DNA from: Sphyrna mokarran
Taxonomy: Eukaryota
Direction of reading: 5' to 3'
Length of the DNA: 64,000 nt
Assembly (NCBI GenBank): GCA_024679065.1
Contig: JAGIQG010000013.1
Coordinates: forward strand, 12,028,001 to 12,092,000
Position numbers and translations under genes: made by a program. Positions 2,005 through 62,316 of the stretch are shown one piece after another; the stretch's first letter is position 1, and each line of letters starts with the position of its first letter. Below the pieces are notes generated by a model. It saw nothing but the letters and a program-made list of their open reading frames with translations, was not told the origin of the DNA and made no database searches.

Positions 2005-2276
2005 TAAATTTGAAGTTTGTTTACTTGAGTCACAAGTAGGTAATGAAGTTACTGTGAAAAATTCCCCAGTCGCCACACTCCGGTGCCTGTTCAGGTACAC
2101 TGAAGGAAAATTTAGCATGGCCAATGCGTCTAACCACCATGCCTTTTGGATTATGGGAAGAAACTGGAGCACCTGGAGGAAACCACATAAGCACAGGGAG
2201 AACCTGCAAACTGCACACAGACTCAAGCAGGGAATCGAACCCGAGTCCCTGGCACTGTGAGGCAGCAATGCTAATC
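2005..2276 (-). mobile_element. V-SINE (HE1-like), Rex1-type tail subfamily
   Basis: B box (rc of ggaatcgaacc), V-domain (rc of ggagcacctggaggaaacc), tail rc of tcacaagtagg...ttactgtgaaaa. Confidence 0.9.
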
Positions 2277-2357: not shown

Positions 2358-2415
2358 GTAAGTTTAAAGTTTATTAGTATCACAAGTAGATTTACATTAA
2401 CACTGCAATGAAATT
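2358..2415 (-). mobile_element. Isolated 3' tail of Rex1-tailed V-SINE
   Basis: gtttattagtatcacaagtagatttacattaacactgcaatgaa. Confidence 0.8.
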
Positions 2416-2417
2416 CC

Positions 2418-2486
2418 CTTAGGTCATTTGATAACACCAGCTTAGGTCATTTGATAGAACCAACTTAGGCCATTTGATAGCATCTA
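2418..2486. repeat. 23-bp tandem repeat, 3 copies
   Basis: cttaggtcatttgataacaccag / cttaggtcatttgatagaaccaa / cttaggccatttgatagcatcta, starting at 2418, 2441 and 2464. Confidence 0.9.
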
Positions 2487-6585: not shown

Positions 6586-6726
6586 GTAATGACACATTCC
6601 TTATGACATAACACCCCTAAAGTTAGCAGTGACACAAAACATTCCCATTTTTTTCCTCGGAAATGTTATTATTTGATAGCTATCCCTTCTTTCTCAGACA
6701 GACACACGATGCATGGTAGTTTATTT

Positions 6727-7040
6727 TTGATTTGGTTCAATTTATCATTGTCACATATATAAACATACAGTGAAAAGTATTGTTTCTTGCGTGCTATACA
6801 GACAAAACATACAGTTCATAGAAGAGGAAATGAGAGACTGCAGAATGTAGTGTTACAGTCATAGTTAGGGTGTAAAGAAAGATCAACTTAATGCAAGGTA
6901 ATTCCTTTCAAAAATCTGATGGCAGCAGGAAAGAAGCAGTTCTTGAGTTGGTGTGTGTCCTCAGACTTTTGCATCTTTTTCCCGACAGAAGAAGGTGGAA
7001 GAGAGATGTCTGGGGTAAGTGTGGTCCTTAATTATGCTGG
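6727..7040 (-). mobile_element. Rex1/Babar LINE 3' fragment
   Basis: rc matches the 3' end of the plus-strand Rex1 copies (ccaactcaagaactgcttctttcctgctgccatcaga...ttttcactgta...tgtgacaat). Confidence 0.85.
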
Positions 7041-8489: not shown

Positions 8490-8845
8490 TAATTATTCAT
8501 TTACAAAATGTGTGTGTTGCTGATTAGGCCAACATTTATTGCCCAAGCTTAATTGCTTTCCACTGAACAACTTGTTACGCCATTTCAGAGGGCATTTAAT
8601 AATCAATCACAATGCTGTGGATCTGGTGTCACATCTCAGTTAGGATGGCAAATTTCCTTCCATAAAAGACATTAATGAACCAGTTGGATTTTTATGATAA
8701 TCGACAATATTTCATAGTCATCATTAATTCTTTTGGTATTGAATTCAAATTTCATCATCTGCTGTGGTGGGATTCAAACTTTGATCCCCAAAACATTGCC
8801 TGGGTCTCTGGATTACTAGTCCAGTGACAATGTTAATAATATACC
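8490..8845 (-). mobile_element. SINE family B
   Basis: rc of the 6020 family (ggccaacatttattgccc...gaattcaaatttcatcatctgctgtggtgggattcaaac). Confidence 0.85.
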
Positions 8846-12624: not shown

Positions 12625-12896
12625 CAAGTGCAAGTTTATTTATTGGTCACAAATAAGGCTTACATTAAGACTGCAATTAATTTACTGGGCAATTGCCCAC
12701 ACTTAGGCATCTGTTCGGTTCAATACACCTAACCAGCACATTTTTCAGACTGTGGGAGGAAACCAGATAAAACCTGTGCTGACAGGGGGAGAATGTGCAA
12801 GCTTCACATCGACATTGACCCAAGCTGGGAATTGAACCCAGGTCCCTGGCGACTGTGAGGCAGCAGAGCTAACCATTGTGCTACCATGCTGCTCCA
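12625..12896 (-). mobile_element. V-SINE, Rex1-type tail
   Basis: gtttatttattggtcacaaataaggcttacattaa...gggaattgaacccagg...gctaaccattgtgctaccatgctgc. Confidence 0.9.
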
Positions 12897-13669
12897 CGGG
12901 ACACTTGATGTGGTAAATGTTAGTGTGTAGTGCTCCCCTGATCTATGATTTGCACAACAGATACCATTATTGGAAACTTTGAGTGCATCTGGTTTCTAAC
13001 CCTTGTGATTAATGAACAAGAAAATGCTTGAGCCATGAATTGTTGCATGGTTTTGGCACTTAGAGTCCTTGTATTCATCCCTATTGTACAAATCTCTGCA
13101 CCAGTAAATATTGAAATGTACCTCTGTATCATTTTTTCTGTCTGGTCATAAACAACTGCCCTGACAACAATTGAAGATGGATAGCTATTATTGTTTTCCT
13201 TCTACTTCCATACCGAGGATTGTGTTCTGTTATTAAAGGGTTCTTCCATGGAATTAATGTTAGGAAGCACAACTTGTACAGCCAGATGGATTGTGTTACT
13301 GTCTTAGAGAAATAATGTTCGTAAGTCTACAAATTAATTGAAGAGCATCTCCATAAGACATCACTGGCCATCTGGAGCTTGTCTCTCTTTATCCAAACAG
13401 TTCCAAAGAAGAAATGAGAAGTAGAGACAAATAGGTTTGCTCAGTACATTTATTCGAATTATTAAAGCTATTGAGGTACAATGTAGTTGCTCACTTTGTC
13501 ATCCTTATTTCTCAATATAAATTGATTTACGTGATCATGATTCTTCCTTTCCTCTGGCATCTTTCCAAAGAATAATACACATGTATGTGATTTCCAGGTG
13601 AGAGTCCTTTAAAGTCTGACTCTGCTGAAATCATGATTTGTACAATGTTTGTGTGACTCTGTTATGTTT

Positions 13670-15780: not shown

Positions 15781-16304
15781 GAAAGAAAGATAAATAGTTT
15801 CTTCTGATTGCTTATTTGATTTTTTGATTCTATAATAGAATTTGACATTTTTAAATGTGAGAACAAATTGTGTTGTATTCTCTTTATTGCTTCAATACAA
15901 TTCCAATAGAATCAGTCCCAAGCTGTACATATTGCACTAACTGTGGTCTGACTAAACTGTTACATAGATCTACCATTACATTCCAACTTTTTCATTTCAT
16001 TCCGCCTGCCATTAAGCACCATTAACATTTTATGGTCTTAGTCATTTGATTTATTATCTTGATTCTGAATCCCAAATATGTTGATTATCCCATTAAAAGG
16101 ATTCTATCATTTTCCCTTTGGAAGCATTAAATATTATTTCCATTTTTTGAATACAAAATTTGCGACCTAATTTTTACTAATATTGGCTTAGAGCTTTTTT
16201 TATAAAATGGGCGCTATGGACAAGTTGGGCAAAGGGCCTGTTTCCAGCTGGAAACTTCTATGATAATTCTAATGAAACCTTATGTCATCCCCTCTGGTGA
16301 GCTT

Positions 16305-16558
16305 GTTTATTTGCTAGTGTCACAAGTAGGCTTACCTTCACACTGCAATGAAGTTACTGTGAAAATCCCCCAGTTGCCATACCCTGGCGCTTATTTGGAT
16401 ACACTGAGGGAGAATTTAGCATGGCCACCTAACCAGCAGATTATGGGAGGAAACCAGACCACCTGGAGGAAACAGACTCTGCACATATAGTGACCCAAGT
16501 TGGAAATTGAACCCAGGTCCTGGTGCTGTGAGGCAGCAGTGCTAACCATCATGTGCCC
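16305..16558 (-). mobile_element. V-SINE, Rex1-type tail
   Basis: gtcacaagtaggcttac...gttactgtgaaaatcccc...ctgagggagaatttagcatgg...ttgaacccagg. Confidence 0.9.
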
Positions 16559-17239: not shown

Positions 17240-17620
17240 GGGGAGGTGATGACCTAATGGTTGTACTGCTAGATTATTAATCCAGAAACTCACTGGACCC
17301 GGATTCGAATCCCACCAATGGCAGATTGTGGAATTTGAACTTAATAAAAATATCTGGAATTAAGAACTTACTGATGACCATGAAACCATTGTTGATTGTC
17401 AGAAAAACTGATCGGGTTCACTGATGTCCTTTAGGGAAGGAAATCTAATGTTCTTACCTAGACTGGCCTACGTAAGTCCAGGGCCACAGCAATGTGGTTG
17501 ACTCTCAACTGCTGCCCTGAAATGGCCTAGCAAATTTCTCAATTCAAGCGCGATTAGGGATGGGCAATAAATGCTTGCCTAGCCAATGTTGTCAGTGTCC
17601 CATGAATTAATAAAAAAAAT
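17240..17620 (+). mobile_element. SINE family B, full length, inside a degenerate TIR element (~16560-17687)
   Basis: A box tgacctaatgg, B box ggattcgaatccc, tail gggatgggcaataaatgc. Confidence 0.9.
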
Positions 17621-19827: not shown

Positions 19828-20417
19828 GTTCGACGTTGATGCTATAGATAAGAAAGCCCATCAATGCCTCTACTTCCTCAGGAGGCTAAGGAAATTTGGC
19901 ATGTCAGCTACAACTCTCACCAAGTTTTACAGATGCACCGTTATATACATGCTTTTTGGAGGTATCACAGCTTGGTATGGCTCCTGCCCTAACTGAGACT
20001 GAATGAAACCACAAAGGGTATGAACGAAGCCCATTCCATCAGGCAAACAGACCTCCCATCCATTGACTCCCAGCTGCCTTGGAAAAGCAGTCAGCATAAT
20101 CAACAATCCCATGTACCCTGGATATTCTCTCTTCCAGCTCCTTCCATCAGGAAAAAAAGTACAAAAGTCTGACATACCAACCGACTCAAGAACAGCTTCT
20201 TTCCTGCTGCCATCAGACTTTTGAATAGACCTATCTTATTTTAAGTTGATCTTTCCCGACACCCTAGCTATGACTGTAACACTACATTCTGCACTCTCTC
20301 TCTTTCGCTCTCCCCTATGTACTCTATTAGTGGTATGCATAGTCTAGATAACATGCAAGAAACAATACTTTTCACTGTATCCCAGTGTATGTAGAATAAT
20401 AAATCAAATTAATTCAA
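19828..20417 (+). mobile_element. Rex1/Babar LINE 3' fragment
   Basis: KKAHQCLYFLRRLRKFGMS...FYRCT...ITAWYG, then tail aataaatcaaa. Confidence 0.9.
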
Positions 20418-22789: not shown

Positions 22790-23120
22790 GGGTCATGGTG
22801 GCACTGTATTAACATTGCTGCCTCACGGCGCCAGGAACTCAGGTTCAATTCCTGGCTTGGGTGCCTGTGTGGAGTTTGCACATTCTCCCTATGCCTGTGT
22901 GGGTTTTCTCTGAATGCTCTAGTTTCCTTCCATAAAGTCCAAAGCAAGTTAGGTGGATTGCCCCTTAGTGTTCAAAGATGGATAGGTTAGGATGGATTAG
23001 TCATGATAAATGCGTGGCGTTATGGGGATGGGAAGGAGGGGAGGGCCTGGTGGGATGCTGTTTTGGAGAGTTGGTGCAGACTCGATGGGTTGAATGGCCT
23101 CTTCCAGCACTAAAGCTTCT
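22790..23120 (+). mobile_element. V-SINE HE1-like, CR1-type tail
   Basis: ggttcaattcc B box; gtgtggagtttgcacattctcccc; gtgcagactcgatggg...tggcctcttcc. Confidence 0.9.
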
Positions 23121-28605: not shown

Positions 28606-28984
28606 TGATAGTGATTCTGCTAATTGCTTTTGCCCCTTAAATTTCTACTATTTTGGGGATGTTATTTGTGTTTTCTACCACAAAGACAGATATTAAAATA
28701 TTATTATTAATAGTTATTTATATGATTTCTCCATTAGTCTCCCCCTCCGAGGGACAAAAGCATACTTCAGCTACTCTTTTGCTTCTTACGTACTTGCAGA
28801 AATTTTACTATCGACTTTCATATTGTAAGTTTTCTCATTGTTCAACTTCTCTCTCCATTATTCCTTTGATCATCCCTCACTAATTTCTATAGTTTTCACA
28901 ATTCTCTGGCCTACCATTAACCTTTGCATCTGTTTTTCAAATTTTATACCATTCTTAGTTAGCCATGGATGATGTTATTTCTTA

Positions 28985-29140
28985 GCGTCACAAGTAGGCT
29001 TATCTTAACACTGCAATGAAGTTACTGTGAAAATCCCTTTGTCGCCACACTCTGGCACCTGTTTAGTTACCCTCAGGAGAATTTAGCATGGCCAATGCAA
29101 ATAATCAGCATTGATTTCGGACTGTGGGAGGAAACAGTTG
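28985..29140 (-). mobile_element. V-SINE, Rex1-type tail (3' half)
   Basis: gtcacaagtaggcttatcttaacactgcaatgaagttactgtgaaaatccc. Confidence 0.9.
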
Positions 29141-29667: not shown

Positions 29668-31132
29668 AAAAATCTGTGGCCAGAGCTATCAATACCCAAG
29701 GTGGGTATGTTGGCCAGAGTTTCAATGTTCAAACATGGATTCCTCCTCAGGCAATTAGCATTTGGCCATGGTTGCATTTTCCTACACGATAGTCAGTGCA
29801 TCTCACGAGAGATTTGTGATACAAGAAGCTTTTGAAACAGAGGGAAAGAAAAAGGGGGTGCTGTTTAAATGCAGACCTTGCTTTCCATCTTCATATTGGT
29901 CATCCACTGTCCCTGACTGTTGCGACTTACACAGGAAGAACAGTGTATCGATTTTAATCAGGCAATTGAGGTTGGCCTGCTAGAATATGAACTCCCTGAT
30001 TAAGGGCCCAATTGATCCAGTTGACCCAAAAGTTCAATCAGGGTGCCCCATGCTTTGTACTTAAACGGAAGTGTCAATTCCTCTGGCACTCCGGATGTAG
30101 ACTGCATACTGCGAGCACTCTGTATAGTGCTGTTGGACCTTGTAAATGAAAGAATTTTGGTGAAGGAATTTCCACCTCTGAGGACTAATTACAAACAGTT
30201 ACTTGGGAAAGGCAATGTATTGCAGCAAAAACAGACAGCTTCAGCAGAATGAAGATTGTAACAGGATTTTAAAAAAGTTGATGAAGTAGTTTCAAAACCT
30301 CACCCTGGGCTTTTTATCAAATAATAATAATGCACACAATCATGTCAGATCCCATGACGATTGTTAGCATCTGGTTATGCTTATAGTTCTAGGAATTAAA
30401 AGAGCAACATGTACTCCTTTCCCTCTGAGAAGTCCCTCCAAAGACATGCTGCATTTCTCAAAAAAGCCCTTACAACTGTAAAGGCAGCAATATGACTACT
30501 GTGTGCATGCAGAAGAAAATAGGAATGAGAAAATGGCCTGAGATCCCTGAGCTTGCTTTTTGTGTCATATGTCAGCAGTGTTGTTAATTAAGGGGTGTGG
30601 TGGATGATTATTATGGGCTAGGCTTGGCATATCTCCAAGTGCCTATGGCTGAATACAATGCAATATTTTTCTTGTGGGTTTCCCCAGGAGATTTAATGAT
30701 TGTTGCAACAATCACTCTTTGTACTGTATCCTAAATATATTAAAAAAACAGACTGCAGATTGTCTTAAATTTAAGTACAAAAGGCTTGTCTTTACTTCAA
30801 AGTCTGTCTTATGCGCTTTTATTTCAGGGCACTATCTTCACTGAAAATGTGCTCCTAAGTGCGGAAACAAAAAACGATACACAATTATTTTACGGTCAGG
30901 TTTGTTTGAGTGGGACAATAACACTGCTTGAAATTTCCTGACTGTTGTTACTGGTTCAAAAAGACAATCTGAACATGCTGTAAGTTCCCTTATCAGCTGA
31001 GATATTAGTCATGCAAGTTCCAGCAGCCCTCAAAAGTTTGAAATCAAGTTCATTTAATGAGTTGTCATCACAGAACTCCTATGGTGCAGAAGGAGGCCAT
31101 TCAGCCCATCAAGTCCACAAGTAGGATATTGA

Positions 31133-31415
31133 ATTGTCACAAGTAGGCTTACATTAACACTGCAATGAAGTTACTGTGAAAATCCCATAGTTGACACATT
31201 CCATAGCTTGTTTGGGTACACTGAGGAAGAAGTTTGCCTGGCAATCCACTTAACCTGCACGTCTTTCAGACTTTGGGAGAAAAGTGGAGCACCCAAAGGA
31301 AACTCATGCATACAAAGGGACAACGTGCAAACTCTGCACACACAGTGACCCAAGCTGGGAATCGAACCCAGGTCTATGGAATTATGAGGTAGTAGTGCTA
31401 ACCACTGTGCCGTGT
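31133..31415 (-). mobile_element. V-SINE, Rex1-type tail
   Basis: attgtcacaagtaggcttacattaacactgcaatgaagttactgtgaaaatccc...gggaatcgaacccagg. Confidence 0.9.
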
Positions 31416-31744: not shown

Positions 31745-32236
31745 TTCATATATACCTTACAGTGCAGAAGTAGGTCATTTGGAGGACAGTGGGTCCCACC
31801 TATAACAATCCTACCAAGCTACGTCTTATCCCTGTAACCCCACATATTTACCCCACTAATCCCTCTAACTTACACATTGCATGACACAAAGGGGCAGTTT
31901 AGCATGGTCAATGCACTTAAGCTGCGCATCTTTGGATTGTGGGAGCAATCTGAACACTGCATTTGCCTGAGGAAGACACAGAGTGTTGAAAGCTCGCTTT
32001 TTTACTATCAAATAAATCGGTTGGATTATAAATTGGTGTTGCTAAATTCTTACTGAGTTCTTACCACCCCAATCCAACGCCGGCATCTGTATATTGTGGG
32101 AGCAAACCAGAGTACCTGGAGGAAACCTGCGCAGACATGAGGTGAATATGCAGACTCTGCACGGATAGTCACCCAAGCTGGGAATCAAACTCAGGTCCCT
32201 GGTGCTATGAAGCAGCAATGCCAACCACTGTACCCT
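31745..32236 (-). mobile_element. V-SINE HE1-like, CR1-type tail, interrupted by a Penelope end
   Basis: V-domain duplicated around the insertion: gcatctttggattgtgggagcaa / gcatctgtatattgtgggagcaa. Confidence 0.85.
31951..32088 (+). mobile_element. Penelope-like pLTR 3' end with minimal hammerhead ribozyme core
   Basis: CTGAGGA-a-GACAC-aga-GTGTT-GAAA-gc-tc-gc-TT, then caaataaa...ccaatccaacgccggcatct as in 51690-51770. Confidence 0.75.
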
Positions 32237-33901: not shown

Positions 33902-34238
33902 GGGCGGTATGGTGGTACAGTAGTTAGCATTAGTCAGAGCGCCAGGGATCCAGGTTTGATTCCTGGCTTGGGTCGCTGTCTGTGTGGAGTCTACATGTTC
34001 TCCTCGTGTCTGGGTGGGTTTCCTCTGAGTGCTTAGTTTCCTCCCAGGCTCCAAAGATATGTGGGTTAGGCACATTGGTCATGCTAAATTGCCCCTTGGT
34101 GTCCCAGAATGTGTAAGTTAGAGCAACTAGCAGGGTACATATGTGGGGTTACAGGGATAGTGCTTGGGTGAGATTGTGGTAAGTGCAGACTCGATGGGCC
34201 TAATAGCTTCCTTCTGCACTGTAATGTTTCTGATTCTG
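33902..34238 (+). mobile_element. V-SINE HE1-like, CR1-type tail, full length
   Basis: gggcggtatggtggtacagtagttagca...ggtttgattcc...gtgcagactcgatgggcc. Confidence 0.9.
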
Positions 34239-34584
34239 ACAAATTCCTTTAAAAATAAGTGAAGCAGTGGCAGTAACCTTACCTTCCTTCTCTTCTGCCC
34301 CAGATCCAGCCTTCAATTTCCCAACTTTTCAGCTGCAGCCCTCTCCAACACCCTCCTGTAAAATCTGATCCCATGGGGTTTCTGAGGCACCAGTCTTAAC
34401 TGAAGGAACTGTCAGAGTGGCTTTCTGACAGGTACAGAGAGAACCAAAAAGAAAGAAAAGCTACTTTACTGTGTCGCTGCCAACCTGTTGTCAAAAATGA
34501 AAGTATTGGTAGGAGTGACTATTGCACAGTCTATGTAGATACCAAGTCCCATTTCTATCCTGAACATCAAGCTAACTTATTTTT

Positions 34585-34950
34585 TCTCTATTCATTCATG
34601 GGATTTGAGCATTGCTGGCTAGTCCAGTATTTATTGCACATCCCTAATTGCCCTTGAGCACATTTCAGAGGGCAGTTTCTTTTAAAATCAACCACATTGC
34701 TGTTAATCTAGAGTCTCTTGGAGACCAGACTGGGTTACATTTCCTTCCCTAAAGGACATTAGTGAACCAGATGGGTTTTGTTTGCAACATCAGTAATGGT
34801 TTCATGGTCTTTATCATTAGACTTTTAATTCTAGATTTTTATTGAATTAAAATGTCACCATCTGTTGCATTGGGATTTGAATCCCAATCCCTGCAACTTT
34901 ACCTGAGTCTCTGATTTACCAGTCCAGCATTAATAGCATCACTTCAGAAC
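34585..34950 (-). mobile_element. SINE family B
   Basis: ttcattcatggga...ttccttccctaaaggacattagtgaaccagatggg. Confidence 0.85.
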
Positions 34951-37693: not shown

Positions 37694-37980
37694 TTTTATT
37701 TATTTATTATTGTCACAAGTAGGCTTATATTAACACTGAAATGACGTTACTGCAAAAATCCCCTAGATGCTCCACTCTGGCGCCTGTTTGGGTACACTGA
37801 GGGAGAATTTGGCATGGCCAATGTAACCAACCAGCATGTCTTTCGGACTGTGAGGAAACTGGAATGCCCAGAGGAAACCCAGGTAGACATGGGGAGAATG
37901 TGCAGACTCTGCACGGATAATAATCCAAGCCAGGAATTGAACCTGTGTCCCTGGTGCTGTGAGGCAGCAGAGCTAATTAT
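37694..37980 (-). mobile_element. V-SINE, Rex1-type tail
   Basis: tttatttatttattattgtcacaagtaggc...ctgagggagaattt...ggaattgaacc. Confidence 0.9.
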
Positions 37981-38323: not shown

Positions 38324-38647
38324 TGGGTGGTACAGTGACACAGTGGTCAGCACTGCTGCCTCACAGCGCCAGGGACTGGGATTCAATTCTGGCCTCGGGT
38401 CACTGTCTGTGTGGAGTTTGCATTTTTTCATCGTGCCTATGTGAGTTTCCTCTGGGTGCTCCAGTTTCTTCCCACGGTCTAAAAATGTGTGAGTGAGGTT
38501 GATTAATCATATTAAATTGATGCTTTGTGACAGGGGATTAGCAGGTAAATGTGTGAGGTTATGGGAATAAGAATTAGGTAAGATTGTGGTCAGTGCAGAC
38601 TCGATGGACCAAATGGCCTCCTTTTGCACTGGAGGGATTCATGATTC
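38324..38647 (+). mobile_element. V-SINE HE1-like, CR1-type tail, full length
   Basis: gtgacacagtggtcagcactgctgcctcacagcgccaggg...gcactggagggattcatgattc. Confidence 0.9.
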
Positions 38648-38977
38648 AAAGAGATCAACGCCAAAATCTGAAGAACAACATGATGAACCATTTATTTACT
38701 CTGATTCAAAAAAATGTTCGTGTTCTTACAGTCAAACGTCCTGATACCAAAAACCACTTTGAAAAATGATCCTTTCAAAATAAACTCTGATCTTGCCCTC
38801 CTGCTTCCGAGTGGATCAGATGGTGTTATACTACATGCCATCTGGTAGGAAGGGTTTAGTTGGAAACAATAATATTAAATGAAGCTGTGCCGGACATGCC
38901 ATCTGATGTTACACGTACCACAGTAGGTGGTCTCAAGACAATGCTAAGATTGTATCATTGTTGTTTTTTTTAAAGCA

Positions 38978-39355
38978 TGTTTTATTCATTCATGGGATAT
39001 GAGCATCACTGGCTGGCCAACATTTATTGTCAATTCCTAGTTGCCCTTGAGAAAGTGGTGGTGAGCTGCCTTCTTGAATCACTGCAGTCCATATTCTGTG
39101 GATTGACTCACAATGCCGTTAGGAAGGAAATTCCAGGATTTTGACCCCAAAATTGTGAAGGACAGTGAGTGGCTTCGAGGGCAATTTGCAAGTGGCGGTC
39201 TTCCCATTTATCTGCTGCCCTTGCCCTTCTACACGGAAGTGGCCGTGGGTTTGGAAGGTTCTGGGTAAGGATCTTTGGTGAATTTGTAGATAGTACACAC
39301 TGCTGCTACTGAGCGTCAGTGGTGAAGGGATTGAATGTTTGTAGATGTGGCGCCA
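38978..39355 (-). mobile_element. LINE B 3' end
   Basis: ttattcattcatggga...gcccttgagaaagtggtggtgagctgccttcttgaa...ttccaggattttgaccc. Confidence 0.85.
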
Positions 39356-39789: not shown

Positions 39790-40214
39790 ATGAGTCTGTG
39801 CAGTTCCCAACTTGGCCTTTGGAACTGGCTGATTGGCATTCCTGTCTTGCCCAAGTACATTTACCTTCCTGCCAAGTTGGTCGACTTTGACCCTCACCCG
39901 CTTGACCAGACTTTAACTCTGCCACTGGATTGTAATGAAGGCACAATAGCTGAGTGTCATGTGATTGCAATGATCAGCAAGGTGAGCAGGTGTAATGGGC
40001 TGAATGGCCTAATCCTGCTCTTATATTTCTATGTGACTGGAATTTTGAGGAAGTCGAATGGCAATGTAACAAGATTACAAAGATTCTAAAACAATACTTG
40101 TGTTTATACCCTTCTTTCCAAGACATTAGGACATTCTAAAGTGGCTGACAGAGAACAAAATACCTTTGAATCATTTATAATATCAGAACACAGCAATCAG
40201 TAAAGTGAAAAACA

Positions 40215-40475
40215 AGTTTATTTATCAGTCACAAATAAGGCTTATGTTAACACTGCAATGGAGTTACTGTGAATTTCCTCTAGTCTCCACACTCCGATGC
40301 CTATTCAGGTCAATGTACCAAATCAGTACTTCTTTCGGACTGTGAGAGAAACTGGAGCACCCGAAGGAAACCCAATGCAGACATGGGAAGAATGTGCAAA
40401 CTCCACATAGACAGTGATTCAAGCCGGGAATCAAACCTGGATCCCTGGCACTGTGAGGCAACAGTGCCACCACGC
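40215..40475 (-). mobile_element. V-SINE, Rex1-type tail, inserted in a DeuSINE relic (~40085-40650)
   Basis: gtttatttatcagtcacaaataaggc...gggaatcaaacc; flanks aaacaag/aaataag. Confidence 0.9.
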
Positions 40476-41895: not shown

Positions 41896-42172
41896 CTTGT
41901 TATCTTGATTCTTGTTATCTTCAAATGCCAATGGGATGGGGAAGTGATATTGACGTTATTGTTAAACTAAGAATCCAGAAACTCAGCTAATATTCTGGGG
42001 ACCCGGGTTCAAATCCCACCGTGGTAGATGGTGGAATTTGCATTCAATAAAAAATATCTGCAATTAAGAATCTACCGATGAACATTAAACCATTGCCAAC
42101 TGTCAGAAAAGCCCATCTGATTCACTAATGTTCTTTAGGAAGGAAATCTGCGATCCTTACGCGGCCTGGCCA

Positions 42173-44241
42173 CTTCATCATTATGCAGTGCTTCAAAAGG
42201 CTAGTCATGGCACATATCAATTCCAGCCTCCCAGACTATCTGGATCCATTACAGTTTGCCTACCACTACAACAGGTCCACAGAAAACATCATCTACCTGG
42301 CCTTGCACTTAACGCTTGAACACCTAGATAACAAGGACACCGACGTCAGACTCCCATTTATTGACTACAGCTCAGCCTTCAACATCATTATTCCCATGAA
42401 ACTCATCTTCAATCTCCGTGGCTTGGGCCTCGGCATCCCTCTGTGACTGGATCCTGAACTTCCTAACTCAAAAACCACAATCGGTAAGCATATGCAACAA
42501 CACTTCCTCCACGATTATCATCAACACTGGTGCCCCTCATGGCTGTGTTCTCAGTGCCCTACTATATTCCTTATGACTATGTGGCCAAATTCCCCTCCAA
42601 TCTGATTTTCAAGTTTGTTGAAGGCACCACTGTAGTGGATCGGATCTCAAACAATGATGAGACAGAGTACAGGAATAAGATAGAGAATCTGGTGAACTGG
42701 TGCAGCAACAATAATCTCTCAAAAGACAAAGAACAAAACAGCACGGGAAACAGGCCCTTCAGCCCAACGAGCCCGTGCTGCCACCCCAATGTTCCCACCT
42801 CTACCTGTGATCCCTGTCTATGTTTATAGATCTATGAATTAAAAACCAAATTTGAGACAATTTAGGGAGAATTTGTTTTCCCAATTAGCCTAACAGCACA
42901 TCTTTGGGATGTGGGAGGAAACCAGAGCACCCGGAGAAAATCCACACAAGCATGGGGAGAATACACAAACTCCCACAGACACAGGCCCAAATCCATGTAT
43001 CTGCACAGCACAGCGATAGTCACTGAGCTGTCGTGTTGCCCATCAAATGGTCCAGGTCAAGCGTACACCAATAACGTGAAGCACTAGGATACTCTTGAAA
43101 AATCCAACTCAGACCTTCCATACGAAGCAGCATCCTGGTAAACCTCCTCTGCACTCTCTCCAGAGTCTCCACATCCTTCCGGTAGTAATGCGAACAGAAC
43201 TGGACGCAGTATTCCAAATGAGGTCTAACTAACGTTTTATACAACTGCAACATTAAAGGCCAGCTCTTGCACTCTATACTCCTTCCTATAAAGGCTAGCA
43301 TACCATATGCTTTCTTCACAATCTTCCCCACCTGCTCTGCCACCTTCAGAGAGTTGTGCACCTGCACCCCCAGGTCCCTCTGCATTTCTATACTCTTAAT
43401 AGGTCTACCCTTTATCATATACCTCCCCCTACATTCTTTCTCCCGAAATGCATCACTCCGCATTTATCAGGATTGAATTCCATCTGCCATCTATCTGCCC
43501 AAGCTACCAGCCTATCTATGTCCTGCTGCATCGCCTGACAATGCTCCTCACTATCCGCAAGTCCAGCCAGAATGAAAGATTGTAAAGGAGAACATGCCCC
43601 TGCCTCCATCAACAGGGACGAAGTAGAAAGGGTTGAGAGCTTCAAGATTTTTGATGTCCAACTCACCAGCCACTGTCCTGGTTCTCCCCATACTGTACTA
43701 TAGTGAAGAAAGTCCAGCAATGCCTCCACTTTCTCAGAAGACTGAGGAAATTTGGCATGTCAGCCACGACTCTCGCCAACTTTGCAGATGCATCATTCTT
43801 TCCGGTTCTATCACAGTTTGGTATGGCTCCTGCTCTGCCCAAGACAGCAAAGAAATACAAAAGGTCGTGAATGTAGCCCACTCCATTACGCAAACCAGCT
43901 CCCATCCATTAACTGTCTACACTTCGGAAAAGCAGGCAGCATAATCAAGGATCCCACGCACACGGATATTCTCTCTTCCACCTTCCTCCATCGGGAAAAA
44001 TACAAAAGTCTGAGGTCACCTACCAATTGACTCAAGAACACCTTCTTCTCTGCTGCTGTGAGACAGTTGAATGGACTTACTTTGCATTAAGTTGATCTTT
44101 GTCTACACCCTAACAATGACTGTCACATTACTCTCTTGTTTCCTTCTCTATGAACAGCATGCTTTGCCCGTATAACACGCAAGAAACAATATTTTTCACT
44201 GTATGCGAATACATGTGACAATAATAAATCAAACCAAATCA
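42173..44241 (+). mobile_element. Rex1/Babar LINE RT (parts 42173-42722 and 43573-44241)
   Basis: MQCFKRLV...[15 protein letters not shown]...[13 protein letters not shown] (Rex1 RT); tail tacatgtgacaataataaatcaaa. Confidence 0.9.
42724..43572 (-). mobile_element. CR1 LINE with V-SINE-derived 3' UTR, copy 1 (internally deleted)
   Basis: RT RDLGVQVH...LYKTLVRPHLEYCVQF joined at ~43107 to a 3' UTR shared with 58872-59254. Confidence 0.85.
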
Positions 44242-44482
44242 GAATACTCCAGAATCAGAGCAATGCGTTGACTCTCAACTGTGCATGGGCAATTAGGATG
44301 GGCAATAAGTCCTGGTCAGCCAGCCGGCTATGCCCATGTCCCACAAATGAATTAAAAAAAAGCATTTCTCCAGAGAATGGCTTGTCCTCGGTTTTGAGAC
44401 TGCCCACACCCGCACAGTTAGACCTTGTGTCTGGGCTATTTGCTGGCTCTGTCTTACAAGTTGCAAACTTCCCAGTACAGTG

Positions 44483-44760
44483 TAGTGGCACCGTGGCACA
44501 GTGATTAGCACTACTGCCTCATAGCACCAGGAGTCAGGTTCAATTCTGGTCTTGCTCACTCTCTCTGCGGAGTTTGTACATTCTCTCTGTGTCAGTGTGG
44601 GTTTCCTCCAGGTACTCTGGTTTTCTTCCACAGTCCAAAATATGTGCTGGTTAGATGAGTTGGCCTTGCTAAATTCTCTTTTAGTGTTCAAAGATATATA
44701 TAGATTAAGTGAATAAGCCCTGGTAGATGTATGGGATATCGAGATAGGGCAGAAAGGTGG
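44483..44760 (+). mobile_element. V-SINE HE1-like (CR1-type branch), 3' truncated
   Basis: gtggcaccgtggcacagtgattagcac...ggttcaattc...V-domain. Confidence 0.85.
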
Positions 44761-44929: not shown

Positions 44930-46120
44930 TGTTGGGGTAGGAGTTGGTGGAGTGTGGGGAGGTCACATCATGGGGCAGGGAACCAGAAGAGAGAGAGATT
45001 CCAACAGCTGGTGGCTTGGACAGTCTGGGGTGTGGGGGTGGGGGTCAGGCTGTGGTTGGACAGTTGTAGGTGTTTGGAAGTCTGAGGAGTGCGGGTTGGT
45101 TGGACAGTTAGGGGCATGATTGGGGCAGCTGGGGGGATAGGATAGTCAGGTAGATTTGTACAGTTAGTGGGCAGACCATCAAGTGTGGGGTCTATTGTCT
45201 CTGCCTAAACTTCATGCTGCCTCAGAAAAGTAGCCAGCGTAATCAAAACCCTGCACACACCAGACATTCTCTCTTCCACCTTCTTTTGTCAGGAAAATGA
45301 TATTGAAGTCTGAGGGCATGTACCAACCGACTCAAGAGCAGCTTCTTCCCTGCTGCCATCGTACTTTTGAATAGACTTACCTTGCAGTAAGTAGATCTAT
45401 CTCAACATGCTTGCTATGACTGTAACATTACATTCTGCACTCTTCCCTATCCTTCTCTATGAACGGTATGCTTTGTCTGTATAGTGTGCAAGAAACAGTG
45501 CTTTTTGCTGTATCCCAACACATATGACAATAATAAATTAAATCAATTCAAATCAAATCAAAAGATATTTGGGTGTCAGAAAGTTTGGGAAGATCACAGA
45601 TTAGGTGGGTGACAGTTGGGGCAGAGAGGTCAGAGAGTCAGGTATCGGACAGCTGATGGTGTCGTACAGTTGTTGGGGGCAGTTGGAGAGTTGGTAGGTT
45701 GGAGAGCTGGGGGTGGGGGTTGGAGAGGTGGGGGGGTGAACAATCAGTGGGGGGAGTCAGATTGTTGGGTGTTGAACAGTCGTGTGGGGTTTGGAGATTC
45801 AATGGATGGACAGTTGATAGAGGGCAATCATTTGGGGGCGGATTTGGCAATGGATGGGGGGTGGTCAGGCTAGGCATGGGTTGGTAGTCGGAGATAAGGG
45901 GGATCTCCCAGGACAGGGGCGTTCCAGTACGGGTACATTGTTGAGGGATGGGGGAAGTTCCCTGGTGATTTGGGTGTTGGGGTGTCTGATTAGACAGGAA
46001 ATGTTTATGTGGGACTATAATTTGGGGAGTGGAAGGAGACCCCAGGAGTAGTAAGCTGATGGGGAGAGTCATCTGGCAGTTTGGGTGGGAGGGACAGAGG
46101 TGGTCTTGTAGGGAATGTGT
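44930..46120. repeat. G-rich low-complexity tract with degenerate GGACAGTT units, interrupted by Rex1
   Basis: Many ggacagtt/gtacagtt/gaacagtc motifs among G-runs. Confidence 0.6.
45190..45561 (+). mobile_element. Rex1 3' fragment
   Basis: ccaaccgactcaagagcagcttcttccctgctgccatc...tgacaataataaattaaatcaa. Confidence 0.85.
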
Positions 46121-47602: not shown

Positions 47603-47897
47603 TTTGTTTATTTATTATTAATGTCAAAAATAGGCTTACATTAACGCTTCTGTGAAAGTTACTGTGAAAATCCTCTATTCGCCACACCCCGGTGCCTGTT
47701 CAGTACAGTGAGGGTGAATTTAGTATGGCCAATGCACCTAACCAGTACATCTTTCAAACTGTGGGAGGAAACTGGAAAACCCAACGCAGAACGGGGAGAA
47801 CATGCAAACTTCACACAGACTGTGACCCAAACTGGGAATTCAACTCAGGCCCTTGGCGCTGTGAGGCAGCGCTGTTAACCACTGTGCCACTGTGCTA
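47603..47897 (-). mobile_element. V-SINE, Rex1-type tail
   Basis: taggcttacattaac...gttactgtgaaaatcc...ttaaccactgtgccac. Confidence 0.9.
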
Positions 47898-51295: not shown

Positions 51296-51481
51296 ACCAT
51301 TGTCGCTGGGTTAAAATTCTGGAACTCCCTTCTTAACAGCACATTGGATGTACCAAAACAACATGGACAGCAGTGGTTCAAGAAGGTGGTTCAACGTCAC
51401 CTTCTCAAAGACAATTAGAGATAAGTAACAAATGTTGGCCTTGCCAATGATGATTATATACCAAGAAAGAACTTAAAAAAA
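51296..51481 (+). mobile_element. LINE B 3' end
   Basis: gggttaaaattctggaactcccttcttaacagcac...ggttcaagaagg...caaatgttggccttgcc. Confidence 0.85.
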
Positions 51482-51525
51482 GCTATTTCTCGGTCTTGCA
51501 TCTCACTGGTGTTTATGGGAGCTGG

Positions 51526-52711: not shown

Positions 52712-53056
52712 ATTCTGTCTACATTTCCCACAGCCTTGGAAAAGCAGCCAGCATAATCAAGGACCCCACGCACCCTGGACGTTCTCTCTTCTACCTTCTT
52801 CCATTGGGAAAAAGATGCAAAAGTCTGAGCTCACGTACCAACCGACTCAAGAATATCTGCCATCGGACTTTTGAATAGACCTATCTCGCACTAAGTTGAT
52901 CTTTCTCTACACCCTAGGTATGACTGTAATACTACATTCTGCACTCTCCTGTTTCCTCCTCTATGAACAGTATGCTCTCTCTGTAGAGCACGCAAGAAAC
53001 AATATTTTTCATTGTATACTAATACACTGCTAATAATAAATCAAATTAAAACAAAT
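52712..53056 (+). mobile_element. Rex1 3' fragment
   Basis: gaaaagcagccagcataatcaaggacccc...aataataaatcaaa. Confidence 0.9.
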
Positions 53057-53205: not shown

Positions 53206-55510
53206 TGTTGAACATTAACCCTTTGCAATAACTTTGGCTCACACGTTAGGTATGAAACAACTAACATTTATTTACAGTGTACTATCTTACAGTCTTGCAG
53301 CTGCTTGTCAACATCTGTTGTCGATCCACGGCAAAAGCCTCATTTGCTAGGGTGAGCCCCTACCCTGGTCCCTTGATTGGGTTTCCCTGGTCATGTGACC
53401 CTGTTGGCCAATGGACCATTAAAGGGGCCAGACATCACATCTTTTATCCTGCAAATCCAATCAAGTCTCTAATTCTATCAGATATGTTATTTACATTATC
53501 CTACACTCCTCCCCCGCCCCCTCCCCCTCCACTCTACACCACCCACAGAAGTCTCTGCTTTGTTTGCTGATTCTCAGAGATAAACATTATGGTGAAATCA
53601 CCAATCTTTCTGACTTTGCTCTCTCAGAGGATTGAAGATCTCCATGTTCTCTCTCAAACTCTGTAGAGAAACATGTGAATCACCAGAGACTAGCAGCTCT
53701 CTATCCAGGCTGTCTTCTCGATTTTCTGGATAGTTGGCCCATTTCATTGATTATCTGCATCTTAGAAACACAAGTGTGCCTCTGTTTCTTTTCACAATTC
53801 CATTTTCAGTCTCTGCAAGACAAGATCAGAGATGCAGTAATTTCTTTTCAAATATGGCCTTCACAATTCTGGTCATGCTTCACCTGGCCGCAATTCTGGT
53901 AAATCATGCACTCTATGTCATTAATTTGAGTCATAGAGTCATACAGTTCAAAAAGGCCCTTCGGCCCATCGAGTCTTACTGACAATATCTACTATGAAAG
54001 ACGCATTCATCCCATTTTCCTACATTTGCCTCACATTGTTGAATATTATGATATTTCAAGTGCTCATCCAAATATCTTTTAAAGATTATGAGGTTTCTGG
54101 CCTTGACTACCTTCCCAGGCAGTGTATTCCAGATTACCTCAACTCTCTGAGTGAAATTGTTTTTTTTCAAACCCCCTCTGCTTTGATTTGCAAAATGCTC
54201 ACCTTCTTTATCTCTTAGTCTCACCTTAGTTGCTTTGATATATGGCATAAGCTTGTGCAGAAGAACAGGGAGCCATATCTTTAGTCATCTTCCCATTTGA
54301 GGTTCTGGTGAAGCCAAACCATTTGGGAGTGGTGTGGGATGGCAGCCAAGTGGACATTGTCATTTTTCTTCAACTATTCCGTTAACTTTCATATGCTCCT
54401 TCTGGCCTCTTCAGTAGCTTCTGGGTATCTGAGTGAATTAGTCATATGGACAAATTCACAGGCTTCTGTGAACTGCTTAAAACATTTGTTTGCAAACTGT
54501 GGGCCATTGTCTGAAATGACTAGATTTGGAATGCCATCTGTGGCAAACATGTATTTTAGTGATTTAATAACTGCTTTCAAGGTTATAGAATAAAAACATT
54601 GAACTTCAATCCATCTGGAGTGATAGACAACAATTCTAAGGAATGTCTCCCCTTTGAGCTTGAAAAGACCCATTTTGGGATTTTCCCATAGTCTAGACAG
54701 AAATGTGGATTTCATCAGTGGTTCCTTTCATTCCAAATGATTCAAAATCACTTCCTCTGGTGACTTTGAGATCCCTGGTCATCAAACAGAATTTGGGCTC
54801 TAACTTTAGAATGTCCAGGGTGTTCCTGATGTGTTCTCCGAAGGATCTCAAGTCTGAAGGCTCTATTTATGACCAATCCCTCATCATAAAGCACCATTCA
54901 TCCACAACACTGAGATACCTTAATTAGTCAAAATATTAATTCAGGTGGAGATTGTTTGGAACATATTCTGGCTATCCTTTGTTGCAGAATTCCTGAATTT
55001 TAGCACAATCTTCATCTGCTTTTTGTGTCTTTCAAATTTCATTAAACTCTGCGTTTGTGCTGGTAGGAATTTTGTGGTCAATGAGGTGTAGGGCTCCACA
55101 TCTGTTGTTCAGGCTTTTCAACTGGAATGCATGACAATGTGTCTGCTGTTTGCTGTTTTTCTTAGACATATTCGATTGTGGCATCAGATCTTAAGAGTCT
55201 CAGACAACATTTCTGGATCCTTGGTGTTACCTTTGTTAATTCTTTAGCATTTGATAACTTAACTAACAGCATGTGGTCTGTCTCAGTAGTCAACTTTAAG
55301 CCTAAGCCGTAGTCAGTTCTCACAGATCCATGTAGCTGCTAATGCTTCTTTTTCGATTTTAAGATGCATAGTATCCTGGTCTTTGTTTTCCATTTGGAAG
55401 AGTGCTGCTCTAGGCCAGCCGCTTATGCACCCACTGAAACTGTCATGGGTATTTCTGGATCATGATGTGCCAATATGTCTGGTGAAATATGCATTTTTGT
55501 TATCTTTTAG
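53206..55510 (-). mobile_element. Gypsy (Ty3) LTR retrotransposon remnant: RNase H, integrase, PPT and 3' LTR
   Basis: Integrase YHSRWIE...FATDGIPNLVISDNGPQF...SLRYPEATEEARR (54389-54715); RNase H IEKEALAATW...ETDH (~55270-55360); PPT 53506-53530 abuts an LTR at 53206-53505 that starts TGTAGG on the minus strand. Confidence 0.85.
53925..54190 (-). mobile_element. CR1 3' fragment inside Gypsy
   Basis: FTQRVEVIWNTLP...FKRYLDEHL plus tail. Confidence 0.85.
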
Positions 55511-55539: not shown

Positions 55540-55852
55540 CCATTAAAGACCTCATGCATCCCAGACATATCGTCTCCCACCTCCTTTTGTCAAACGAAAG
55601 ATACAAAAGTTTGAGGTCACATACCAACCGATTCAAGAGCAGCTTCTTCCTTGCTGCTGTCAGATTTTTGAATGGACTTACAATGCATCAAGTTGATCTT
55701 GCTCTACATCTTAGCTATGACAGTAAGACTACATTCTGCACTCTATCCTTTCCTTCTCTAAGAACAGTATATTTTGTCTGTATAGTGTGCAAGAAACAAT
55801 GCTTTTCACTGCATACTTAATATGTGTCAATAATAAATTAAATCAAAATCAA
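55540..55852 (+). mobile_element. Rex1 3' fragment
   Basis: RYKSLRSHTNRFKSSFFLAAVRFLN; tail aataaattaaatcaaa. Confidence 0.9.
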
Positions 55853-58774: not shown

Positions 58775-59965
58775 TTTATTTTATTTATTAGTCACAAGTA
58801 GGCTTATATTAACATTGCAATGAAATTACTGTGAAAATCCCCGAGTTGCCACACTCCGGCGCCTGTTCGGGAACAAAGAACAACACAGCACAGGAAACAG
58901 GCCCTTTGACCCAATGAGCCCATGCTGCCATTTTAAAGTTCCCACTTCCACCCACCACCCTTGTCTATGTTTATGGAAATCTGCATTGGAACCAAATTGG
59001 GGAGACAATTTAGGGGCAATTTGTTTTGCTAATCAGTTTAAGAGCACATCTTTGGGGTGTGGGAGGAAACGGGAGCACCCGAAGAAAACCCACGTAAGCA
59101 CAGGGAGAATGCGCAAACTCCCAGATACCAGCCCAAATCCCTGTATCTGCACAGCAACAGTGGTAGTCACTGAGCTGTTGTGTTGGCCATCAACTGGTAC
59201 AGTTTAAGCATACACTAGTGATGTGAAGCAATAGGCTACTCTCGAAAAATCCAAGAGCAGCCCTCTCATGACCCATCGTGTGTATGCCCCTTGTTGGACA
59301 ATAAGGTGGACTGAAGAACCTGTAGGATAAGAGAAATACATAATAACATGCACAATTTATGCAATTCCCAGGAACATCCCAAGGCTCATGATCCCTATTT
59401 AAATCAGTCTACTATATCCTTCCATCCCTATTCCGCTCATGTGCCTATCTAAGTATCTCTTAAATAACTCAGCGTGCCTGCCTCCACCACCTTACCTGGA
59501 AGTGTAAGTGCATTCCATACCTCCACCACCTCCCTCTAACATCCAAATTATACCTTGCCCCCCTCACCCTAAGCCCGTGGCCCCTCGTAATATTTGATTC
59601 CAACCTAGGAAAAAGCTTACCACTGTTTATTCTATCTATACCCTTCATAATCTTGTACACCTCTATTAGATCTTCTCTCAGTCTCCATCTTTCTAAAGAA
59701 AACAGCCCCAATTTGCCTAACCTTTCCTCGTAACCCAGTCCTTCCATACCAGGCAGCATCTTGGTAAACCTCCTCTGCGCTCTTTCCAGGGTCTCCATGT
59801 CCTTCCGGTAGTAAGACAACCAGACTGGACACAGTACACTGAGGGAGAATTTTGTATGGCCAATGCATCTAACCAGCACGTCTTTTAGACTGAGAAGAAA
59901 CTGGAGCACCCAAAGGAAACCCAGACAAACATAGGGAAAATGTGTAAACTCCACATGGACAGTGG
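58775..59965 (-). mobile_element. V-SINE, Rex1-type tail, split (58775-58871 and 59836-59965)
   Basis: cctgttcggg | gtacactgagggagaatt rejoins the SINE consensus seen in intact copies. Confidence 0.85.
58872..59835 (-). mobile_element. CR1 LINE with V-SINE-derived 3' UTR, copy 2
   Basis: ORF2 YYRKDMETLERAQRRF...TRGHGL...FKRYLDRHM ends ~59400, followed by a ~530-bp 3' UTR containing a V-SINE body (~59010-59190). Confidence 0.85.
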
Positions 59966-61007: not shown

Positions 61008-61080
61008 TAGTTAAAGTTTATTTATTAGTTACAAATAAGGCTTACATTAACACTACAATGAAGTTACTGTGAATTTCCCC
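61008..61080 (-). mobile_element. Isolated tail of Rex1-tailed V-SINE
   Basis: gtttatttattagttacaaataaggcttacattaacactacaatgaagttactgtgaa. Confidence 0.85.
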
Positions 61081-62004
61081 TTAATCCTTCAGGCTCATTG
61101 GGTAAAGAATGAGAAAAAACAGAAAATAAGAACATTTGTTCATATATGAAACTTTCCAGTCTTATAGTTAGAAATTTGATCTTTGAAATTCCAGCTTGCC
61201 TCTGGCATGGAACCAGTGCAATCTGGGACAGGGGTTGGGGAGCGACTTGATCAGAAATCATTTTCCACTGAGTTTTTATCCCTTTCTGAGATTGCAATTA
61301 TTCTTCTCAGAACAGCCTCTCCCCTCCTCACCAGGTCACAGAATTGGGGCAAAGGGTAGGTGTTGGCAGAGAGATAAGTGGTCTCTGTCCAGTGTATGGC
61401 CAAATGAACATGTATGGTATGTATATGGAGTGTAAATACAGTTCACCCTGTCATCTGCAATATCTGCTTCCTCCCTTGGACAGACAGGCTGCTGTTATAG
61501 AAAGCAGCAAGGGGACATTTGGGAATTAAAAGTGCAACTTTCGGTCACTCTAGTTCACCTGCTTCCACACCCCCCTCCCCTCCAACTACTGAGGTATCTT
61601 CGGACTTCCAATTACATCTGAAAGTATTGCTCGCAAATTCCCATGCCACACAACATGCATATGCTCATGGCATCATGCATGACATGGGCAACTGTCCCTT
61701 TTTCTGCAAGTTTTTGCTTCCTGTATGAGGTTATTTCAGAGGAAGACATGTGCATGCAGATCCTGTCCTTTTGCACATCTGGTGCTGTGGTTGCAGCAAT
61801 TCATTGGTCCTTAGTGGGCCTAATCCACCAGTGCGTCTCCCCCCCCCCACCCCCATTTTAGGTTTAGCCCCATCAGATCTCTGCGCTCTTCCAATTCTGG
61901 CCTTTAGTACCTTCCAATTTTCTTTTTTTTCATTACTGGGGCTGTGGTTTCAGTTGCCTACAGCCCATAGAATTCCCTCTCCACCTCTACACTGTCCTCT
62001 ATGT

Positions 62005-62316
62005 TTGTTTATTAATCAGTTACAAATAGGCTTATCTTAACACTGCAATGAAGTTACTGTGAAAATCCCCGTGTTGCCACACTCTGACACCTGTTTGGAC
62101 ACACTGAGGGAGAATCTAGCATGGCCAAAGCACTTTACACACACATCTTTGGATTGTGAGAGGAAACCTGAGCATCTGGAAGAAACCCACGCAGACACAA
62201 GGAGAACGTGCAGACTCCACACAGATAATGACCCAAGTTGGGAATCGAACTTGGGTTCTTGGCACTCTGAGACCCTGTGCCACTGAGACTCTGAGATCAC
62301 TGTGCCACTGTGCTGC
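62005..62316 (-). mobile_element. V-SINE, Rex1-type tail, inside an L2-like 3' relic (~61860-62440)
   Basis: gttactgtgaaaatcccc...ctgagggagaatctagcatgg...gggaatcgaac. Confidence 0.9.

What the first reader, a model, noticed from the sequence alone, without database searches (positions are those of the whole stretch)
31133..31185. V-SINE tail swap from CR1 to Rex1, with a compensatory base pair in the 3' stem
Seen: one SINE head and V-domain carry two alternative tails. The second reads ttttTCACAGTA-acttcattgcagtgttaatgtaagcc-TACTTGTGA-caat. Rex1 ends here read ttttTCACTGTA-tgcgaa-TACATGTGA-caataataaa (44196-44218). Both form the same 8-bp stem with a bulged T, and a T-A pair becomes A-T, while the SINE loop is extended (cttcatt pairs with aatgtaag). 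Established: HE1 SINEs use the HER1/CR1 tail, and stringent LINEs recognise 3' stem-loops. Inference: this subfamily switched to a Rex1/Babar partner, and the covarying stem marks the RT recognition element.
Basis: partly seen in the sequence, partly recalled or inferred. Interest (0 to 1): 0.7.

Follow-up and report, generated by a model that had tools for sequence, protein, structure and literature searches.

The report
Shark V-SINE with Rex1-type tail
A common short mobile element in this shark-like genome comes with two different tail ends, one of which looks borrowed from a Rex1 retrotransposon; this is a further case of a known tail-swapping process, and the claimed base-pair proof of the recognition hairpin is weak.

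Summary
Observation real. One tRNA-headed V-SINE carries two tails: a CR1-like tail (type A) and an 85-nt tail (type B, 12 copies). The B end matches the 3' end of a Rex1-clade LINE (7 ends here). A two-block model trained on the LINE ends ranks 11 of 12 B tails among its top 18 hits. CR1 and L2-like ends do not match. Profile HMM and covariance searches miss the link: only about 30 nt are shared.
The 'compensatory' pair is fixed between families (A-T in 11 of 12, T-A in 6 of 7) but is one event beside a bulged T. The 5' change alone costs 0.0 kcal/mol because the bulge slides, and 68 of 1224 double changes are tolerated. The SINE stem is marginal and competes with two other folds. The exact partner family and the direction of the swap are not shown.
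Tail swapping and Rex1-partnered SINEs are published; a Rex1-tailed shark V-SINE was not found in 10 paper searches, but Repbase, Dfam and SINEBase were unchecked. New variant of a known kind; interest 0.35.

The parts
31347..31411 (-). tRNA-like Pol III head of the focal SINE copy
   Evidence: Weak match to a tRNA-like Rfam model (mascRNA, E 0.014, below gathering). ARAGORN finds no tRNA gene. A/B-box reading is from established knowledge.
31218..31346 (-). Body and V-domain, shared by both tail types; the tail switch point is at its 3' edge (31218/31217)
   Evidence: by-eye match to the frog V-SINE Racla in the supplement of PMC5804259.
31133..31217 (-). Type-B tail (85 nt); the first about 35 nt have no counterpart in the LINE ends
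31172..31179 (-). 5' arm of the proposed stem; key base A at 31175 (T in the LINE)
31158..31165 (-). Second possible partner of the 5' arm inside the loop (short 5-nt-loop hairpin); a perfect 8-bp match only if position 31175 carried the LINE base
   Evidence: (p 0.003 against shuffled loops, post hoc)
31137..31145 (-). 3' arm of the proposed stem; partner T at 31142, bulged T at 31141 (interchangeable)
31068..31119 (-). About 50-nt type-A (CR1-like) tail fragment directly behind the focal copy's B tail
   Evidence: (score 54 against the A tail)
42168..44240 (+). 5'-truncated Rex1-clade LINE (RT to 3' end), split by a CR1 insertion at about 42722-43583
44196..44218 (+). LINE 3' hairpin with 6-nt loop; key pair T44200-A44213, bulge T44214; followed by a 5-nt micro-repeat
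2020..2095 (-). B tail copy (15-nt deletion in the loop)
2371..2418 (-). B tail copy (5'-truncated)
12640..12718 (-). B tail copy
16311..16399 (-). B tail copy
28979..29066 (-). B tail copy
37704..37792 (-). B tail copy
40222..40309 (-). B tail copy
47615..47703 (-). B tail copy
58784..58871 (-). B tail copy; its body lies at 59834-59964, separated by a CR1 insertion
61022..61087 (-). B tail copy (5'-truncated)
62015..62099 (-). B tail copy
33902..34236 (+). Type-A copy with CR1-like tail (others at 3858-4179 -, 38325-38647 +, 60311-60583 -, 31754-31958 -)
6740..6788 (-). Rex1-like 3' end (others at 20357-20405 +, 45490-45538 +, 52994-53042 +, 55791-55838 +, 57180-57223 -)

Best explanation
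Type B is a tail variant of an HE1-like shark V-SINE whose 3' end came from a Rex1-clade LINE and which was copied by Rex1 ORF2 protein through target-primed reverse transcription. Shown: two tails on one body, junction at the V-domain edge, terminal about 30 nt co-terminal with and similar to the Rex1-like ends. Inferred: (a) a template switch during reverse transcription joined the V-SINE body to a Rex1-type end, either directly from a LINE RNA or by way of another SINE; (b) the donor was probably a different Rex1 family from the one sampled here, since loop, upstream sequence and terminal repeat differ; (c) the RT reads the terminal stem plus the A-rich end; (d) type A is the older state. 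The T-A to A-T change is best read as a structure-preserving drift next to a mobile bulge, not as proof of one required pair. Rough odds: Rex1-clade origin 0.8, stem is part of the recognition signal 0.55, direction CR1 to Rex1 0.7, strict compensatory pair 0.3.
For: Rex-trained two-block model: top 18 hits in 128,000 positions are the 7 training ends and 11 of 12 B tails; 7 of 12 B tails exceed the 95th percentile of the window-wide null maximum. Reverse test: LINE ends score 8.0-24.1 (4 of 7 above the null 99th percentile 12.7), 11 CR1 ends <= 3.0, 2 L2-like <= 4.3, 4 DeuSINE-like < 0, 4 type-A ends <= 10.2. Pairwise alignment 0 of 5000 shuffles; controls 1076 and 2939 of 5000. MAFFT aligns both arms unaided and 84 of 90 cells pair. 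LINE identity: PF09004; 34 RT relatives, named ones from salmonids, catfish and whale shark; both published Rex1 primer sites correspond to its peptide motifs, 570 nt apart in two homologues against an about 550-bp product. Similar ages: B 14.4% (9 copies), LINE 13.1% (7), A 16.7% (5) from their consensus. Tail change by template switching is the published model (PMC4824008 passages). HE1 with HER1 tail is reported from four sharks and rays (PMC3747384 table).
Against: A profile HMM of the LINE ends finds no B tail below E 0.097, and the B-tail HMM finds no LINE end. A covariance model of the LINE ends finds 2 of 12 B tails, at E 0.84 and 3.1. With the A-rich end removed only 2 of 12 B tails exceed the null 95th percentile, and an unrelated site (56095) scores higher; the pairwise p rises to 0.03. 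Two of the 11 model hits (2388, 61039) use a wrong register. The block boundaries were chosen after seeing the finding. No LINE with the long loop was found in the window. The proposed SINE stem has probability above 0.5 in only 2 of 12 copies, and RNAalifold gives no consensus fold. The body tree does not split A from B cleanly. No named Rex1 reference sequence could be aligned.
Confidence: 0.72

Rival explanations
1. One reading: the Rex1 family seen here is the donor and partner, the loop grew afterwards, and the swapped pair is a true compensatory change that marks the RT-binding helix.
For: Pair fixed on both sides in both families; covariation score 0.332, 1 of 500 shuffles; chance that two arm changes hit one pair and stay Watson-Crick about 0.02; stem probability 0.96-0.97 in two of five contexts; LINE hairpin z -3.0.
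Against: One event counted many times (the tool warns of this). The 5' change alone and the double change both cost 0.0 kcal/mol; 68 of 1224 double changes are tolerated. No covariation among LINE copies. Upstream tail and terminal repeat are not shared.
Confidence: 0.2
2. The tail is Rex1-derived but the working structure is another fold: a short 5-nt-loop hairpin (5' arm with 31158-31165) nested in a long helix that pairs the 3' arm with the upstream tail segment, or a switch between these folds.
For: With the LINE base at position 5 the short hairpin is a perfect 8-bp stem (p 0.003). The LINE consensus also has a distal alternative (z -1.63).
Against: The distal helix vanishes in the other end variant (0.00-0.02). 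The real short hairpin has an A-A mismatch and is unremarkable (p 0.22). Sequence homology of the loop to the LINE arms is not significant (p 0.03-0.80). Several folds were tried, and consensuses come from 12 and 7 decayed copies.
Confidence: 0.2
3. The likeness is convergence or chance: an A/T-rich end plus a short hairpin, with a real partner in another LINE clade not present in this window.
For: HMM and covariance searches fail; significance drops to about 0.03 without the A-rich end; only 64 kb were sampled.
Against: Both blocks lie in the same order at the very end of both elements; 11 of 12 B tails outrank every non-family site; no other LINE end in the window comes close.
Confidence: 0.1

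Closest known systems
HE1 V-SINE with HER1 (CR1) partner, sharks and rays (Ogiwara 1999, 2002; seen only through the table in PMC3747384 and passages of PMC4824008)
   Same: tRNA head, V-domain, elasmobranch-type host; type A here has a CR1-like tail.
   Different: Type B has a different tail after the V-domain, Rex1-like at its end. HE1 and HER1 reference sequences could not be aligned.
SINE2-5_NV with Rex1-24_NV (sea anemone; table in PMC3747384)
   Same: tRNA SINE with a Rex1-derived tail.
   Different: Not listed as a V-SINE; not a vertebrate; sequences not compared.
Salmonid SlmI, HpaI (CORE) and OS-SINE1 (Deu) with RSg-1 (table in PMC3747384)
   Same: Fish SINEs of several superfamilies sharing one LINE tail. 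That RSg-1 is a Rex1-clade element is recalled, not from a call (search gave no confirmation).
   Different: Other central domains and another host lineage; tails not compared.
Bivalve V-, CORE- and Meta-SINEs with several LINE partners (PMC4824008, PMC11481361)
   Same: One conserved domain on several tails; partner inferred from 35-61 bp of 3' similarity and compensatory changes in a stem-loop, the same argument as here.
   Different: Partners named there are CR1, CR1-Zenon, L2 and Nimb; 'Rex' occurs 0 times in either main text.
CmiSINE and SacSINE1 with L2-2_CM (PMC5499810)
   Same: Tail sharing among chondrichthyan SINEs.
   Different: CORE and Deu domains with an L2 tail, not V with Rex1.

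Membership tests
V-SINE superfamily | tRNA-derived Pol III head | tested here: met
   tRNA-like fold at 31347-31411 (weak Rfam match); conserved in both tail types.
V-SINE superfamily | About 80-bp V-domain | tested here: met
   By-eye comparison with the V-SINE Racla printed; no computed alignment.
HE1 family | HER1 (CR1)-derived tail | tested here: not met
   Type B against type-A tail: 1076 of 5000 shuffles score as high. Type A does resemble CR1 ends in the window (scores 21-45, no shuffle control).
HE1 family | Identity to the published HE1 consensus | not testable with these tools
   Ogiwara 2002 not held; no Repbase, Dfam or SINEBase access.
Rex1/Babar LINE (putative partner) | RT falls in the Rex1/Babar clade | tested here: inconclusive
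   Motifs match both Rex1 primer sites at peptide level, not at DNA level; 55-75% identity to fish RTs; a salmon homologue hits these copies (E 2e-46), one L2-like fragment weakly (E 0.009) and no CR1 copy. No tree with named references.
Rex1/Babar LINE (putative partner) | Conserved 3' UTR followed by a 5-7-nt tandem repeat | tested here: met
   7 ends align, 85% mean column identity, 5-nt repeat; feature from PMC4635592 and PMC6274825.
Rex1/Babar LINE (putative partner) | AP endonuclease upstream of RT, no ORF1 | not testable with these tools
   All copies here are 5'-truncated.
Stringent SINE/LINE pair | Shared 3'-terminal sequence | tested here: met
   About 30 nt in two blocks; missed by HMM and covariance model.
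Stringent SINE/LINE pair | Conserved stem-loop with compensatory changes | tested here: inconclusive
   1 of 7 pairs changes on both sides, one event, neutral intermediate.
Stringent SINE/LINE pair | Same terminal micro-repeat | tested here: not met
   B copies end in an A-rich 4-nt type repeat, LINE ends in a 5-nt repeat.
Stringent SINE/LINE pair | Trans-mobilisation by the LINE protein | not testable with these tools
   Needs a cell assay.

The most novel reading that the evidence does not exclude
The B tail preserves a structural transition. Its 5' arm has two partners: an inner one that still fits the LINE base and gives a Rex1-sized short hairpin, and the outer LINE-like 3' arm that fits the new base. 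One substitution beside the bulge moved the preferred pairing from the inner to the outer partner, leaving a two-state RNA. If so, this first Rex1-tailed V-SINE shows which features a Rex1 RT needs (helix and A-rich end, not the loop), unlike the loop-reading L2 elements (recalled), and how a SINE can remodel a captured tail without losing mobility.
Probability: 0.12. Interest if true: 0.6.

Novelty: new variant of a known kind. Interest (0 to 1): 0.35.

Why it matters
It adds Rex1 to the LINE partners of V-SINEs and shows both tail states of one SINE side by side with a sharp junction at the V-domain edge, which bears on why conserved SINE domains persist (module-exchange idea, PMC5804259). 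I found no description of how Rex1 RT recognises its RNA; a natural SINE that keeps the arms and replaces the loop is a ready test substrate. A specialist would not be very surprised: tail switching and Rex1-partnered SINEs are in print.

Tried and rejected
Searching for a long-loop LINE: none in the window. In prokaryotic genome contigs, tried for host contamination, 77 pattern matches held no RT relative and the hairpin pattern gave 0 matches; these blanks say nothing about sharks. The Rex1 consensus library in PMC13343379 is cut at 400 characters per cell, so its 3' ends could not be seen. Viral and metagenome contig collections stayed unchecked.
Copy-level covariation was rejected as evidence: copies decay neutrally, and loop columns are as conserved as arm columns (270 of 297 against 87 of 94 and 100 of 108). 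RNAalifold gave no fold for B and an unrelated 4-bp helix for the LINE. For one search, 5 of 12 B copies and 1 of 7 LINE ends were left out because of indels.
A degraded C-terminal fragment found no homologues. A translated-SINE search for host range gave 29 hits, none named, so no taxonomy. No convincing target-site duplication in 15 copies. The covariance-model hit at 16042-16110 is not a LINE end. Loop as duplication of the LINE arms: not significant. Host gene: 212 open frames scanned in Pfam gave only mobile-element or sub-threshold hits; a candidate exon at 1154-1360 found nothing. No Rfam family at gathering score.

Full report
Setting. The window is 42% GC, repeat-rich vertebrate DNA with tRNA-headed V-SINEs, CR1, L2-like, DeuSINE-like and Rex1-like fragments. 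An elasmobranch host is inferred from this repeat set and a whale-shark RT homologue at 63% identity; the species was not determined. The family names CR1, L2 and DeuSINE for window copies are recalled from their motifs, not from a library search.

The observation. The quoted stretch lies on the - strand at 31133-31185, at the 3' end of a SINE spanning about 31130-31411. Alignment of 19 copies shows one head and body with two tails that part right at the end of the V-domain; the shared part is identical at 159 of 182 consensus positions. Type A resembles CR1 ends in the window. Type B occurs 12 times. Seven LINE 3' ends share a short hairpin with a 6-nt loop.

Is the LINE Rex1? The element at 42168-44240 carries an RT fragment with 34 relatives, the named ones from salmonids, catfish and whale shark, and PF09004 near its C-terminus. 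The two published Rex1 PCR primers translate to peptides that match its motifs, at the expected spacing in two homologues, though they do not match the window at DNA level. Rex1 is described as having a conserved 3' UTR and a 5-7-nt terminal repeat, as seen here. Sharks do carry Rex1; three catshark families are listed. No tree with named references was possible, so I rate Rex1/Babar at about 0.9.

Is the B tail related to it? For: consensus alignment beats all 5000 shuffles, while the A tail and the reverse strand do not. A two-block model trained on the 7 LINE ends ranks 11 of 12 B tails in the top 18. The reverse model scores LINE ends 8.0-24.1 and the 17 CR1, L2-like and DeuSINE-like ends at most 4.3. 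Against: profile HMMs in both directions and a covariance model do not make the link at significance; without the A-rich end the pairwise p is 0.03 and 2 of 12 B tails pass the window-wide null. The shared part is about 30 nt. The upstream 35 nt of the tail, the 26-nt loop and the terminal repeat differ. Published SINE/LINE homologies in bivalves span 35-61 bp (PMC11481361), so this is at the short end. The likeliest reading is a Rex1-clade donor, probably a family other than the one sampled.

The compensatory pair. It is A-T in 11 of 12 SINE copies and T-A in 6 of 7 LINE ends. On a 13-sequence alignment (7 of 12 B, 6 of 7 LINE) it is the only one of 7 pairs that changes on both sides. This is one evolutionary event; a naive chance estimate is 0.02. 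The pair sits beside a bulged T. Changing only the 5' base in the LINE hairpin costs 0.0 kcal/mol, because the new A pairs with the former bulge; the second change then alters only the bulged base. Of 1224 double substitutions in the arms, 68 are tolerated at a loss of 0.5 kcal/mol or less. So the difference is compatible with a conserved stem (p about 0.05) but does not single out a required pair. Among LINE copies no pair covaries, as expected for neutrally decayed insertions.

Which fold? The LINE consensus hairpin is well defined (z -3.0; pair probabilities 0.7-0.8 in the full tail). The SINE stem is marginal (consensus z -0.78; above 0.5 in 2 of 12 copies). In five consensus contexts its probability is 0.05, 0.97, 0.96, 0.26 and 0.32. 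Two rivals appear: a short hairpin between the 5' arm and 31158-31165, and a long helix between the 3' arm and the upstream tail. The short hairpin would be a perfect 8-bp stem if the key position had the LINE base (p 0.003 against shuffled loops, found after several tries). That suggests, without proving, that the loop holds an older partner of the 5' arm.

Mechanism. Established: stringent LINEs recognise a 3' sequence or stem-loop, and SINEs gain new tails by template switching (PMC3747384; PMC4824008). Inferred: a switch at the V-domain edge gave an HE1-like SINE a Rex1-type end, and Rex1 ORF2 then amplified it. B, LINE and A copies differ from their consensus by 14.4, 13.1 and 16.7% (9, 7 and 5 copies; ranges overlap). 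One CR1 family inserted into both a B copy and the Rex1 copy, so both predate it. Direction rests on the wide published range of HE1/HER1 and the slightly higher divergence of A; the body tree does not resolve it.

Literature seen. Passages: PMC3747384, PMC4824008 (two of three supplement files searched), PMC6887750 (supplement listed only), PMC5786205, PMC5804259 (whole supplement), PMC11481361, PMC6274825, PMC4635592. PMC5499810: parts 1-2 of 6. PMC13343379: abstract, passages, section 15, supplement part 1 and searches; its sequence cells are cut at 400 characters and may hold the partner. Ogiwara 1999 and 2002: nothing seen directly.

Verdict. A real tail variant of a shark V-SINE, probably Rex1-dependent. 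The tail-swap idea holds; the covariation claim is overstated. New variant of a known kind, interest 0.35.

Noticed in passing
window 58876-59834 (-) and 42722-43583 (-): Two copies of one CR1 family share a long 3' region (81% over 385 bp) that holds a sense-oriented V-domain remnant (about 58990-59130 and 42860-42995) before the CR1 tail. PMC5804259 states that such domains have not been found in LINEs; a V-bearing LINE would give homology for SINE-LINE tail exchange.
   Followed up: partly
all 12 type-B copies: All lie on the - strand (binomial p 0.0005), while type-A copies and Rex1-like ends are on both strands. 9 of 12 carry a polyadenylation hexamer, but so do 7 of 7 LINE ends. No host gene was found to explain it.
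   Followed up: partly
window 31068-31130 (-): The focal copy is directly followed by a 50-nt type-A tail, with a 10-nt repeat of its own 3' arm at the junction; it carries both tails in tandem.
   Followed up: partly
window 44480-44760 (+) and 22795-23115 (+): A third tail form. The 44.5-kb copy has B-like body positions but an A-like continuation and groups with B copies in the body tree; possible intermediate or mosaic.
   Followed up: no
window 40213-40473, 12631-12897, 61016-61087 (-): A B sub-type with an extra T before the 3' arm and a G-U pair in the stem; the two longer copies also lack about 25 nt at the V-domain end.
   Followed up: partly
window 17295-17619, 34575-34927, 41966-42160, 6044-6587, 8525-8824; 38974-39147, 51308-51484: A second SINE family, DeuSINE/SacSINE1-like by recall, sharing its tail with L2-like ends, as described for sharks in PMC5499810.
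   Followed up: no
window 54392-54727 (-): Degraded integrase core fragment (PF00665, E 1.5e-5, below cut-off), probably an LTR retroelement remnant.
   Followed up: no
window 1154-1360 (+): Exon-like open stretch between possible splice sites; no match in Pfam, PDB or the ESM Atlas.
   Followed up: partly
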